Below are positions 44,501 through 46,184 of a DNA stretch of 64,000 nucleotides, piece by piece. A program made the translations under genes and the position numbers. The stretch is taken from the NCBI RefSeq assembly GCF_009914755.1, contig NC_060925.1; one strand, written 5' to 3'. The notes beneath the pieces were generated by a model. It saw only the letters and a program-made list of their open reading frames with translations, was not told the DNA's origin and searched no databases. How positions within the stretch are numbered: the first letter of the stretch is position 1; each line of letters begins with the position of its first letter. Source of the DNA: the human T2T-CHM13v2.0 reference genome, Homo sapiens.

Positions 44501-45389
44501 CCTCTACACACTGCTTTGAATGTGTCCCAGAGATTCTGGTATGTTGTGTCTTCGTTCTCATTGGTTTCAAATAACATCTTTATTTCTGCCTTCATTTCGT
44601 TATGTACCCAGTAGTCATTCAGGAGCAGGTTGTTCAGTTTAATGTAGGTGAGCGGTTTTGAGTGAGTTTCTTAATCCTGACTTCTAGTTTGATTGCACTG
44701 TGGTCTGAGAGACAGTTTGTTATAATTTCTGTTCTTTTACATTTGCTGAGGAGTGCTTTACTTCCAACTATGTGGTCAATTTTGGAATCGGTGTGGTGCG
44801 GTGCTGAAAAAAATGTATATTCTGTTGATTTGGGGTGGAGAGTTCTGTAGATGTCTATTAGGTCCGCTTGGTGCAGAACTGAGTTCAATTCCTGGATATC
44901 CTTGTTAACTTTCTGTCTCATTGATCTGTCTAATGTTGACAGTGGGGTGTTAAAGTCTCCCATTATTATTGTGTGGGAGTCTAAGTCTCTTTGTAGGTCA
45001 CTCAGGACTTGCTTTATGAATCTGGGTGCTCCTGTATTGGGTGCATATATATTTAGGATAGTTAGCTCTTCTTGTTGAATTGATCCCTTTACCATTATGT
45101 AATGTCCTTCTTTGTCTCTTTTGATCTTTGTTGGTTTAAAGTCTGTTTTATCAGAGGCTAGGATTGCAACCCCTGCCTTTTTTTGTTTTCCATTTGCTTG
45201 GTAGATCTTCCTCCATCCTTTTATTTTGAGCCTATGTGTGTCTCTGCACGTGAGATGGGTTTCCTGAATACAGCACACTGCTGGGTCTTGACTCTTTATC
45301 CAATTTGCCAGTCTGTGTCTTTTAATTGCAGAATTTAGTCCATTTATATTTAAAGTTAATATTGTTATGTGTGAATTTGATCCTGTCAT
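41563..45389 (-). pseudogene. Disrupted L1 ORF2
   Basis: Split into six ORF fragments by frameshifts (about 44640, 43625, 43080) and stops (about 43945, 42055). Confidence 0.95.
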
Positions 45390-45396
45390 TATGATG

Positions 45397-46184
45397 TTAG
45401 CTGGTGATTTTGCTCATTTCTGCCGAGAGATCCGCTGTTAGTCTGATGGGCTTTCCTTTGTGGGTAACCCGACCTTTCTCTCTGGCTGCCCTTAACATTT
45501 TTTCCTTCATTTCAACTTTGGTGAATCTGACAATTATGTGTCTTGGAGTTGCTCTTTTCGAGGAGTATCTTTGTGGCATTCTCTGTATTTCCTGAATTTG
45601 AATGTTGGCCTGCCTTGCTAGATTGGGGAAGTTCTCCTGGATAATATCCGGCAGAGTGTTTTCCAACTTGGTTCCATTCTCCCCGTCACTTTCAGGTACA
45701 CCAATCAGATGTAGATTTGGTCTTTTGACATAGTCCCATATTTCTTGGAGGCTTTGTTCGTTTCTTTATATTCTTTTTTATCTAAACTTCCCTTCTCACT
45801 TCATTTCATTCATTTCATCTTCCATCACTGATACCTCTTCTTCCAGTTGATCGCATCGGCTCCTGAGGCTTCTGCATTCTTCACATAGTTCTCGAGCCTT
45901 GGCTTTCAGCTCCATGAGCTCCTTTAAGCACTTCTCTGTATTGGTTATTCTAGTTATACATTCTTCTAAATTTTTTTCAAAGTTTTTAACTTCTTTGCCT
46001 TTGGTTTGAATTTCCTCCTGTAGCTCGGAGTACTTTGATCATCTGAAGCCTTCTTCTCTCAACTCGTCAAAGTCATTCTCCATCCAGCTTTGTTCCATTG
46101 CTGGTGAGGAGCTGCGTTCCTTTGGAGGAGGAGAGGCACTCTGTTTTTAGAGTTTCCAGTTTTTCTGCTCTGTTTTTTCCCCAT
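45397..46184 (-). pseudogene. Disrupted L1 ORF1 with C-terminal deletion
   Basis: Only an 89-aa piece is open. It ends ...ADLSAE-MSKITS* because of a 284-bp deletion relative to the L1HS copy. Confidence 0.9.

What the first reader, a model, noticed from the sequence alone, without database searches (positions are those of the whole stretch)
45305..45460. L1HS-type sequence patch straddling a 284-bp deletion inside the older L1: candidate footprint of local gene-conversion repair
Seen: the L1PA3-type copy differs from the neighbouring L1HS every few tens of bases (e.g. 45304, 45461). Between those sites it is identical to the L1HS on both sides of a deletion junction (gctca|tttctgcc, equal to L1HS 31153-31436 removed, TT microhomology). 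Recalled knowledge: this tract carries young-type alleles (ORF2 [11 protein letters not shown] rather than LNVNGLNAPIK; ggtgattttgctcatt; gggctttcc) that an element retaining the ZNF93 block should lack. Inference: a break in the old L1 was repaired by both ends copying the L1HS 14 kb away, and the ends then joined prematurely by microhomology (aborted SDSA).
Basis: partly seen in the sequence, partly recalled or inferred. Interest (0 to 1): 0.8.

Follow-up and report, generated by a model that had tools for sequence, protein, structure and literature searches.

The report
Young-L1 repair patch in old L1
An old, dead LINE-1 copy in a CHRM3 intron carries a short stretch of the youngest human LINE-1 sequence type wrapped around a 284-base deletion, which is the scar of a DNA lesion mended by copying from a young LINE-1; the process is known in principle but rarely seen this clearly.

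Summary
Observation confirmed. The old L1 (B, about 41333-47212, minus strand, keeps the 129-bp 5'UTR block) is identical to the pre-Ta-like L1HS (A, 27066-33105) over 45305-45460. The identity runs across a private 284-bp deletion closed at a TT microhomology.

Tract length alone is unremarkable, since tracts of 163 and 142 bp also exist. Allele typing is what decides it.
- At 73 scoreable sites separating L1HS-like from B-like genome copies, B is old-type at 64 and young-type at 8.
- Six of the eight are contiguous: 45329-45416, then the deletion, then 45454.
- The young haplotypes occur in 351-355 genome copies, the old ones in 1498-1641, and the junction once.
- B's own divergence (1.63%) far exceeds that of young copies, so the patch arose after insertion, by templated repair plus microhomology joining.

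The donor is not identifiable: 25 of 29 sampled L1HS copies match the patch exactly. Only one site supports copying on the right arm.

Unexpectedly, an older L1 on another chromosome carries nearly the same young patch, with no young L1 within 6-9 kb. The shared left limit holds one of only three TTTTAA sites on that strand. This hints at a recurrent, possibly L1-endonuclease-initiated process.

The parts
45305..45460 (-). Maximal L1HS-type tract in the old L1 (B), identical to A on both sides of the deletion junction
   Evidence: flanking differences at 45304 and 45461; A 31041-31154 equals B 45305-45418, and A 31437-31480 equals B 45417-45460
45329..45416 (-). Left arm: five contiguous young-type alleles (45329 C, 45332 A, 45347 T, 45406 G, 45416 A). 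Three are transversions. 45416 is a CpG site in old copies, so it is weak on its own
   Evidence: young allele in 28-29 of 29 L1HS-like loci, other allele in 23-29 of 29 B-like loci. B encodes the young [10 protein letters not shown]
45417..45419 (.). Deletion junction (TTT); 2-nt TT microhomology between the two A breakpoints
   Evidence: junction 31-mer unique in the genome
45454..45454 (-). The only diagnostic site on the right arm: young T where 29 of 29 B-like loci have C
   Evidence: Genome counts: B's 35-mer 22 copies, old 35-mer 1641, young 35-mer 355
45320..45325 (+). TTTTAA (L1 endonuclease consensus as recalled) on the strand antisense to the L1, inside the 24-nt window that holds the patch's left limit
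   Evidence: only 3 TTTTAA sites on this strand in the 6-kb A (27756, 30160, 31056); 1.2% of 24-nt windows hold one. A 31056 corresponds to B 45320
31155..31438 (-). Segment of A whose counterpart is missing from B: ORF1 3' end (~250 nt including the stop) plus 34 nt of the inter-ORF spacer
31041..31154 (-). A stretch identical to B's left arm (candidate template)
31437..31480 (-). A stretch identical to B's right arm (candidate template)
27066..33105 (-). A: full-length young L1 (L1HS; 3'UTR trinucleotide ACG, which is pre-Ta by a recalled rule). It lacks the 129-bp block and has ORF1 of 338 codons
   Evidence: (99% identity to 39 other genome copies)
41333..47212 (-). B: full-length old L1 (L1PA3-type with long 5'UTR; GAG in the 3'UTR), minus 284 bp. 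An A-rich tail runs on to about 41287
46313..46451 (-). 5'UTR block present in B and absent from A; contains the 129-bp segment that younger L1s lost
   Evidence: unaligned stretch; 126 of 126 columns present in B and in 24 of 29 B-like loci, 124 of 126 in a 25th (L048), and 8 of 126 in A, 3 young loci and 4 intermediate loci. The link to ZNF93 comes from passages of bioRxiv 10.1101/429613

Best explanation
B is an old L1PA3-type insertion that suffered a DNA lesion near its ORF1/ORF2 junction after L1HS-type sequence already existed. Repair used a homologous young L1 as template. It wrote 95-114 nt of L1HS-type sequence to the left of today's junction and 36-44 nt to the right. The gap was then closed at a 2-nt TT microhomology instead of being copied through, which lost 284 bp. 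This is a non-reciprocal gene-conversion patch coupled to end joining (homologous repair started, end joining finished).

Shown:
- the mosaic itself;
- that it is foreign to B's lineage and age;
- that the junction is unique;
- the microhomology.

Inferred:
- That one event made both patch and deletion. A separate 284-bp deletion would have to fall wholly inside a ~440-bp tract of a 6-kb element, roughly a 3% chance.
- That the template was DNA.
- That the template was the same-orientation L1HS (A), 14,264 bp away.

My odds: templated repair of some kind about 0.85; a DNA template about 0.6; A itself as donor about 0.45.
For: Allele typing
- Of 53 sites separating 29 L1HS-like from 29 B-like genome copies across B 44000-47200, B reads PPPPPPPPPHHHHH---HPPPPPPPPxPPP-PPPPPPPPPPPPPPPPPPHPPP.
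- In the 3' half, 24 sites give 23 old and 1 isolated young (5 young vs 6 old copies).
- 0 of 200,000 shuffles reach a run of 6.
- None of the 29 control old copies has the young allele at 45329, 45347 or 45454. Four intermediate, block-less copies are still old-type there, so these alleles arose late.

Genome-wide exact counts
- Young left 51-mer 351, old 1498, B's recombinant 9.
- Young right 35-mer 355, old 1641, B's 22.

Age and structure
- B differs from invariant columns at 41 of 2511 (1.63%). A differs at 12 of 2785 (0.43%), and 8 L1HS copies at 0.04-0.25%.
- The junction is unique.
- A is young-type at all 18 diagnostic sites from 30049 to 31481, so there was no reciprocal exchange at the patch.

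For A as donor
- A is identical to both arms, lies in the same orientation and is 14 kb away.
- 2 of 17 rare A variants are shared with B: 30063 C and 30841 T. My own rough arithmetic on those counts, not a tool result, puts the chance at about 0.01-0.02.
Against: - Donor identity is untestable by sequence. No A-private variant lies in the tract, and B does not share the A-private variants just outside it (30986, 31495). 25 of 29 L1HS copies fit equally well.
- The shared 30841 T is not exclusive to A and B: 40 genome copies carry that 41-mer.
- The right arm rests on one site.
- A second, older L1 (locus L075, other chromosome) has a 136-nt young patch with the same left-limit window and a right limit within 22 nt of B's junction. 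No A-like L1 lies within 6.1 and 8.8 kb of that element's ends. This argues for a site-specific and not necessarily local process.
- 0 private changes in 156 nt against 2.5 expected is only weak support (Poisson P about 0.08, own arithmetic) for the patch being younger than the body.
Confidence: 0.6

Rival explanations
1. Endonuclease-initiated, RNA/cDNA-templated 'retro-conversion'. L1 endonuclease nicks the TTTT/AA at B 45323/45324 on the strand antisense to the old L1. The freed 3' end pairs with the homologous internal region of an L1HS mRNA and is extended by reverse transcriptase toward the L1 5' end, which writes young sequence. The cDNA then rejoins the old copy, in register in the chromosome-7 case. 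In B this happens after a 284-nt skip, or by a microhomology join with target loss. No local DNA donor is needed.
For: - Both patches (B and L075) have their left limit in a window that holds one of only 3 TTTTAA sites on that strand of a 6-kb L1; 1.2% of 24-nt windows hold one.
- Both run only toward the L1 5' end, for about 95-117 nt.
- L075 has no young L1 within 6.1 and 8.8 kb of its ends.
- Both patches are of the active (L1HS) type.
- The second clean tract in the L075 element (113 nt) also starts in a T-run followed by A.
- RNA-templated break repair in human cells is reported (PMC12065846; search listing and start of abstract only).
Against: - There are only two cases, and L075 was found with a probe that fixes the left limit.
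- The motif was noticed while the idea was being formed, so it is not an independent test.
- There is no poly(A) and no target-site duplication at the patch.
- The young allele at 45454, beyond the junction, needs either a template jump or a 1.3% coincidence.
- No predicted RNA helix bridges the deletion ends.
- An endonuclease break could equally be repaired from DNA.
Confidence: 0.2
2. Ectopic DNA gene conversion from a distant L1HS copy (another chromosome or far away on chr1), with the same repair logic but not the neighbour.
For: 25 of 29 sampled L1HS copies, out of about 350 copies genome-wide, are identical to the patch. The L075 patch exists without a nearby young L1. Cell-culture work reported break repair in a LINE by conversion from various endogenous LINEs; I saw Tremblay et al. 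2000 only as a citing sentence and reference in PMC1920257.
Against: Proximity and same orientation favour A on general knowledge of ectopic conversion (recalled, not tested here). There is a weak excess of rare variants shared by A and B.
Confidence: 0.15
3. Two unrelated events: a continuous ~440-bp conversion tract, and later an independent 284-bp deletion that happened to fall inside it. Alternatively, the deletion came first and there were two later conversions.
For: Nothing specific. It cannot be excluded from one haplotype.
Against: A random 284-bp deletion would have to land wholly within a 410-440-bp tract of a 6-kb element, about a 3% chance (own arithmetic). A conversion across an existing deletion would normally fill it in.
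Confidence: 0.04
4. A native feature: B belongs to a minor old lineage that already had these alleles, or is a chimera made by template switching during its own retrotransposition.
For: B's left 51-mer has 8 other genome copies. An intermediate lineage with three of the young alleles and old T at A 31040 exists (L074).
Against: - Of those 8 copies, 6 are young elements, 1 is an intermediate and 1 is an unrelated, much older element with its own clean patch.
- The patch alleles are among the last to change along the lineage.
- Those alleles are confined to about 350 copies, while B's body is 1.63% diverged.
- The patch coincides with a private deletion.
Confidence: 0.02
5. Assembly or polishing artefact in the T2T assembly.
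For: None seen; reads could not be inspected here.
Against: The patch has sharp limits, comes with a clean microhomology junction, and lies in unique intronic context that long reads span (general knowledge of the assembly, not tested).
Confidence: 0.02

Closest known systems
Ectopic (non-allelic) gene conversion between dispersed LINE-1 copies
   Same: A short, non-reciprocal tract of donor-type alleles inside an acceptor L1, flanked by acceptor-type alleles. Young-type sequence overwrites part of an older copy. Sources seen: Tremblay, Jasin and Chartrand 2000, only as a reference and one citing sentence in PMC1920257; Burton et al. [quoted passage not shown]
   Different: Here the tract is split by a 284-bp deletion with a microhomology junction. 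The event is a natural germline footprint in a human genome, not a reporter assay. The donor is unidentified.
SDSA followed by end joining ('aborted SDSA') in the Drosophila P{w^a} gap-repair assay
   Same: Repair synthesis from a homologous template is followed by end joining before the gap is filled, leaving an internal deletion between newly copied stretches (PMC2895639, passages read).
   Different: The organism, scale (a 14-kb gap there) and template (sister chromatid there) all differ. Two-ended synthesis is supported here by five sites on one arm but only one on the other. Genetic requirements are untestable.
L1 insertion-mediated deletion and endonuclease-independent L1 insertion at breaks
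   Same: A short L1-derived stretch sits at a lesion, joined through microhomology with loss of target DNA. PMC1920257 (passages read) mentions L1 tracts as small as 13 bp at repaired breaks and an intrachromosomal conversion inside an L1.
   Different: There is no poly(A), no target-site duplication and no extra sequence. The new stretch replaces its own homologue in register, so the net result looks like conversion, not insertion.
L1PA3 to L1PA2/L1HS subfamily succession (loss of the 129-bp ZNF93-bound 5'UTR segment)
   Same: B keeps the block and A lacks it. This dates B's lineage before the great-ape-wide deletion described in bioRxiv 10.1101/429613 (passages read).
   Different: The patch breaks the otherwise strictly ordered succession of alleles. 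B is old at 64 of 73 sites but carries six late-arising alleles in a row.

Membership tests
Interlocus (ectopic) gene-conversion tract | Contiguous run of donor-type alleles flanked on both sides by acceptor-type alleles | tested here: met
   Six contiguous young alleles (45329-45454) lie between old alleles at 45304 and 45461. Over the element, 64 of 73 scoreable sites are old.
Interlocus (ectopic) gene-conversion tract | The tract is younger than, or foreign to, the acceptor copy | tested here: met
   The patch alleles are confined to 351-355 genome copies, against 1498-1641 old ones. They are absent from intermediate copies. B's body is 1.63% diverged, against 0.04-0.43% for young copies.
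Interlocus (ectopic) gene-conversion tract | Non-reciprocal: the donor is unchanged at the homologous segment | tested here: met
   Candidate donor A is young-type at all 18 diagnostic sites between 30049 and 31481. This holds only if A was the donor.
Interlocus (ectopic) gene-conversion tract | An identifiable donor | tested here: inconclusive
   A matches exactly, but so do 25 of 29 sampled L1HS copies. 2 of 17 rare A variants are shared with B elsewhere, which is a weak hint.
Interlocus (ectopic) gene-conversion tract | The orthologous locus in an outgroup shows the unconverted state | not testable with these tools
   No ape genome is held for this window (one search states that the genome has no relatives here).
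Homologous repair finished by end joining (SDSA+EJ) | Templated sequence on both sides of the junction | tested here: inconclusive
   Left arm has five sites. Right arm has one site (45454), and that allele occurs in 22 copies against 1641 old-haplotype copies, about 1.3%.
Homologous repair finished by end joining (SDSA+EJ) | Junction at short microhomology with net loss of sequence | tested here: met
   TT microhomology, 284 bp lost, junction unique in the genome.
Homologous repair finished by end joining (SDSA+EJ) | Dependence on strand-invasion and end-joining factors | not testable with these tools
   This is an evolutionary footprint only.
L1PA3-type L1 with long 5'UTR (element B) | Retains the 129-bp 5'UTR segment lost by later L1PA3, L1PA2 and L1HS | tested here: met
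   139 nt at 46313-46451 has no counterpart in A. 126 of 126 columns are shared with 24 of 29 B-like loci (124 of 126 in a 25th, L048), and the block is absent from young and intermediate loci. That it is the ZNF93 site is taken from the literature and was not mapped here.
L1HS, pre-Ta (element A) | Near-identity to the youngest genome copies; ACG at the 3'UTR diagnostic trinucleotide | tested here: met
   99% identity to 39 other copies over 651 nt. ACG was read. The rule ACA = Ta, ACG = pre-Ta, GAG = older is recalled, not from a call.
Chimeric L1 formed at retrotransposition, or a native sublineage | Mosaic shared by sister copies and as old as the body | tested here: not met
   The junction is unique. 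Of the 8 other copies with B's 51-mer, none is a B-like sister.
Spliced L1 (SpIRE-type internal deletion) | GT...AG at the ends of the missing segment | tested here: not met
   The sense-strand ends read AACCTTAC...TCAACTAA. No GT-AG appears in any of the three equivalent registers or on the other strand.
Canonical target-primed reverse transcription insertion | Endonuclease consensus at the start, poly(A) tail, target-site duplication | tested here: not met
   TTTTAA lies in the left-limit window, but there is no poly(A)/poly(T) and no duplication at the patch. It is not a canonical insertion, although an endonuclease-initiated lesion remains possible.

The most novel reading that the evidence does not exclude
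Young-L1 patches in old L1s are made recurrently at fixed places. L1 endonuclease nicks a TTTT/AA inside an old L1, and the 3' end is extended on a homologous young L1 template, possibly the L1HS mRNA itself. This overwrites about 100 nt toward the L1 5' end, either seamlessly (chromosome-7 case) or with a microhomology join and a 284-bp loss (this locus). That would be a retrotransposon-driven 'retro-conversion' that rejuvenates short stretches of fossil copies without any new insertion.
Probability: 0.2. Interest if true: 0.75.

Novelty: new member of a known kind. Interest (0 to 1): 0.5.

Why it matters
This is a clean natural footprint, in a human germline genome, of a lesion repaired partly by homology and partly by end joining between two repeats.

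- It shows that a recent L1HS-type sequence can overwrite part of a fossil L1. Such patches can mislead subfamily calls and age estimates, because the patch would date a ~1.6%-diverged element as young.
- If A was the donor, the event is human-lineage specific. That is testable in ape and pangenome assemblies.
- The second case, with the same limits next to a rare endonuclease consensus site, turns a single curiosity into a testable question: are such patches site-specific, endonuclease-initiated and possibly RNA-templated?
- There is no sign of a functional consequence for CHRM3. B was already dead, and the deletion removes the ORF1 3' end.

Tried and rejected
1. Length of the identical tract as evidence. 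Rejected: tracts of 163, 142, 128, 120 and 115 nt exist elsewhere between A and B, and they contain no diagnostic sites.
2. Other patches in B. None: only two isolated young calls, at 42778 and 47021.
3. Reciprocal transfer into A. A has four old-type alleles (32116, 32268, 32282, 32738), but they are not contiguous and two are shared with another young copy, L022. I read this as a lineage state.
4. Natural intermediate subfamily. The best non-self genome match to B 44960-45418 scores 801 bits against 829 for self, and A scores 797, which I estimate from the scores as about 6 and 7 mismatches. These are ordinary young copies. In that call only 40 of 2629 candidates were scored, and no loci could be cut.
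5. Splicing. No GT-AG at the ends.
6. Polymerase or RT skip across a hairpin. The fold of sense RNA 31095-31500 shows no pairs bridging the deletion ends, summed pair probability about 0.0002.
7. Shared rare A/B variants. Of three candidates, 32164 is an alignment ambiguity at a CpG. 30841 T occurs in 40 genome copies, so this is weak.
8. Neighbour test for the second case. Only 6.1 and 8.8 kb beyond the L075 element's ends could be fetched.
10. Literature. Searches found no description of this locus or of L1HS patches in L1PA3 elements. One search was swamped by an unrelated word. Tremblay et al. 2000 is not held. Much of the older L1 gene-conversion literature is in subscription journals outside the library, so 'not found' is weak.
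11. Seven of the 29 B-like loci (L060, L051, L055, L039, L042, L032, L048) gave 6-18% 'private' divergence because their alignments run off the element. I did not use them for the age comparison, but they stayed in the allele counts.
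Full report
**What is there.** Both L1s lie on the minus strand.
- A (27066-33105) is a full-length young element. It has a 338-codon ORF1 and its ORF2 start is at 31125. It has no 129-bp 5'UTR block, and the 3'UTR trinucleotide reads ACG, which is pre-Ta L1HS by a recalled rule.
- B (about 41333-47212) is full length apart from one deletion. 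It keeps a block at 46313-46451 that A lacks, and it reads GAG at the same 3'UTR place.
- The two align at 96.4%, 95.7% and 93.4% identity in three pieces and differ at 220 positions.

**Check of the observation.**
- The differences at 45304 and 45461 are real. Between them B equals A over 114 nt and 44 nt on the two sides of a junction. B lacks A 31155-31438 (284 bp; equivalently 31153-31436) and the junction has a TT microhomology.
- The junction 31-mer occurs once in the whole genome at up to 2 mismatches.
- The missing piece is the last ~250 nt of ORF1 plus 34 nt of the spacer.
- The 156-nt tract is not exceptional by length. Tracts of 163, 142, 128, 120 and 115 nt also occur, and where I could type them they simply contain no diagnostic sites.

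**Typing against other genome copies.** The window's own genome could be searched.
- I took the 29 best non-self matches to A 30950-31600 as the young set (99% identity; 40 of 3762 candidates were scored).
- I took the 29 best non-self matches to B's ORF1 piece 45461-46110, which lies outside the tract, as the old set (96-97% identity; 40 of 2671 scored).
- At 45329, 45332, 45347, 45406, 45416 and 45454 the young set carries one allele in 28-29 of 29 copies and the old set the other allele in 23-29 of 29. B has the young allele at all six.
- At the flanks 45304 and 45461, and at 44969, 45048, 45069, 45603 and 45826, B has the old allele.
- Three of the six changes are transversions. Only 45416 is a CpG site in old copies.
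- Across 53 diagnostic sites in B 44000-47200, the only other young call is an isolated one at 47021. Across 24 sites in the 3' half (5 young vs 6 old copies), one isolated site, 42778, is young.
- In total, of 73 scoreable sites, 64 are old, 8 are young and 1 is neither. Six of the eight young calls are in a row, and 0 of 200,000 shuffles give such a run.
- Protein level: four old copies translated encode NVNGLNAPIK...LANW, A encodes [10 protein letters not shown]...LASW, and B encodes [10 protein letters not shown]...LANW.

**The patch alleles are late and rare.**

| Probe | Young form | Old form | B's recombinant form |
|---|---|---|---|
| Left 51-mer | 351 copies | 1498 copies | 9 copies |
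| Right 35-mer | 355 copies | 1641 copies | 22 copies |

- Four block-less intermediate copies in the old set (L059, L050, L060, L051) carry scattered young alleles. They are still old at 45329, 45347, 45406 and 45454.
- The patch alleles therefore belong to the last steps of the lineage, about the number of copies expected for L1HS.

**Age.**
- At 2785 columns that are invariant in both sets, B differs at 41 of the 2511 it covers (1.63%). A differs at 12 of 2785 (0.43%), and eight L1HS copies at 0.04-0.25%.
- Well-aligned block-bearing old copies differ at 0.83-1.9%. Seven old loci whose alignments ran off the element were left out of this comparison.
- B is therefore as old as its family, and the patch cannot date from its insertion.
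- The patch has 0 private changes where about 2.5 are expected (Poisson P about 0.08, own arithmetic), which is weak support.

**What cannot be shown.**
- No A-private variant lies in the tract. The A-private variants at 30986 and 31495, just outside it, are not in B.
- 27 of 29 young copies match the left arm, 27 match the right arm and 25 match both. 0 of 29 old copies match either arm. Sequence does not name the donor.
- Right of the junction, only 45454 speaks for copying. About 1.3% of old-haplotype copies have that base anyway (22 vs 1641 copies).
- Two of 17 rare A variants are shared with B: 30063 C, and 30841 T in an 87-nt stretch common to both. My rough estimate of the chance is 0.01-0.02. 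However, the 30841 T 41-mer occurs in 40 genome copies, and a third candidate is an alignment ambiguity. This is a hint of direct A-B exchange, no more.

**An unexpected second case.** I fetched the 8 other copies that carry B's left 51-mer.
- Six are young elements with the old base at the A-31040 position, and one (L074) is an intermediate.
- One, L075 on another chromosome, is a much older full-length L1: 92.6% identity to A in the body and 85% in the 5'UTR, with differences every 13.5 nt on average.
- Its longest difference-free tract against A is 136 nt, A 31041-31176. That tract carries the same five young alleles as B's left arm and is flanked by dense private changes.
- My own estimate, from the 13.5-nt mean spacing printed, is about 0.02 gaps of that length expected by chance.
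- Its right limit (31153-31176) falls within 22 nt of B's junction.
- No other A-like L1 lies within 6.1 kb and 8.8 kb of its ends.
- The probe fixes the left limit, so only the right limit and the mere existence of the case are informative.
- B's private change at 45281 and L075's at A-31028 confine both left limits to a window of 47 nt or less, whatever the donor type. That window holds TTTTAA at A 31056 (B 45320).
- TTTTAA occurs only three times on this strand in the whole 6-kb element, and 1.2% of 24-nt windows hold one. It is the L1 endonuclease consensus as I recall it.
- I noticed the motif while forming the idea, so it is not an independent test.
- A second clean tract in the L075 element (113 nt) also begins in a T-run followed by A. 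I could not type it.

**Mechanism.** The shown facts are a young-type patch, foreign to B's age, around a private microhomology junction. They fit homology-templated repair that ended in end joining.
It is equally compatible with one end copying about 420 nt with a 284-nt skip.
- I put about 0.85 on templated repair of some kind, about 0.6 on a DNA template and about 0.45 on A itself. A has the same orientation, lies 14,264 bp away, matches exactly and shares a weak excess of rare variants with B.
- The main rival, at about 0.2, is an endonuclease nick at the TTTT/AA extended on L1HS RNA. It explains the shared start, the one-way tracts and the lack of a neighbour for L075. It needs a template jump or a 1.3% coincidence for 45454, and the RNA fold gives no bridging helix.
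- A distant DNA donor gets about 0.15. Two separate events, a native lineage and an assembly error are each unlikely, at 0.04 or less.

**Literature.**
- Passages in PMC2895639 describe repair synthesis followed by end joining after aborted SDSA in flies.
- PMC1920257 cites break repair in a LINE by conversion from endogenous LINEs and mentions an intrachromosomal conversion inside an L1.
- bioRxiv 10.1101/429613 describes the 129-bp loss in L1PA3 shared by great apes.
- Searches found nothing on this locus. Many older L1 papers are outside the library.

**Verdict.** The feature is real and well supported. It is a new, unusually legible example of a known kind of event. Its donor and initiating lesion remain open, and a second case makes a site-specific process worth testing.

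Noticed in passing
L075 (G000:C7:148915727-148917127); element at about C7:148912186-148918310: An older full-length L1 on another chromosome carries a clean 136-nt L1HS-type patch (A-equivalent 31041-31176) with the same five young alleles as B's left arm. It sits amid private differences every ~13.5 nt, and no A-like L1 lies within 6.1 and 8.8 kb of its ends.
   Followed up: partly
L081 (C7 context), A-equivalent 27417-27529: The same chromosome-7 element has a second difference-free tract of 113 nt near the ORF2 3' end. It starts inside a T-run followed by A. I could not tell whether it is a young patch or just conserved.
   Followed up: partly
window 32656-33122 (+): The annotated alternative CHRM3 exon starts inside A's 5'UTR on the opposite strand and runs 17 bp past A's 5' end, as expected for an L1 antisense-promoter transcript. 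A review table (PMC3123540) lists a human-specific LINE-1 alternative promoter of CHRM3 in placenta (Huh et al. 2009). It is probably this element, but I did not verify that.
   Followed up: partly
window 26698-27064 (-): An older 5'-truncated L1 3' end (~367 bp, 92-93% identity to A's 3' end) abuts A's poly(A) tail. A appears to have inserted at its 5' edge, since an AAAAATACT-like stretch is repeated at both ends of A.
   Followed up: partly
window 32116, 32268, 32282, 32738: A carries the old-type allele at four non-contiguous diagnostic sites in ORF1 and the 5'UTR. Two of them are shared with another young copy (L022). This looks like a sub-lineage state of this pre-Ta-like element, not a transfer from B.
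   Followed up: partly
window 30063 (=44328) and 30841 (=45105): A and B share two variants that are rare in both copy sets (C in 1 of 29 and 1 of 29; T in 0 of 29 and 0 of 28). The T 41-mer occurs in 40 genome copies. This is a possible trace of further short A-B exchanges, or coincidence.
   Followed up: partly
L073, L076-L080 and L074: Six young copies keep the old T at the A-31040 position. One intermediate copy (L074) already has three ORF2 N-terminal young alleles but is still old at later-changing sites. This gives an order for the last substitutions in the lineage.
   Followed up: partly
L045 and L046 (G000:C13, about 19 kb apart, opposite strands): Two old copies with identical diagnostic strings, including the same odd calls. 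This is probably an inverted segmental duplication of one L1.
   Followed up: no
L042 (G000:C1:100528189-100531838): This control old copy has young alleles at three nearby early-changing sites (A-equivalent 31152, 31246, 31435) and at two 5'UTR sites. It could be another small mosaic or a sub-lineage.
   Followed up: no
window 41287-41351: Beyond B's 3' end motif the A-rich tail is interrupted by ~40 nt of non-A sequence before a second A-run. This may be a short 3' transduction or a decayed tail.
   Followed up: no
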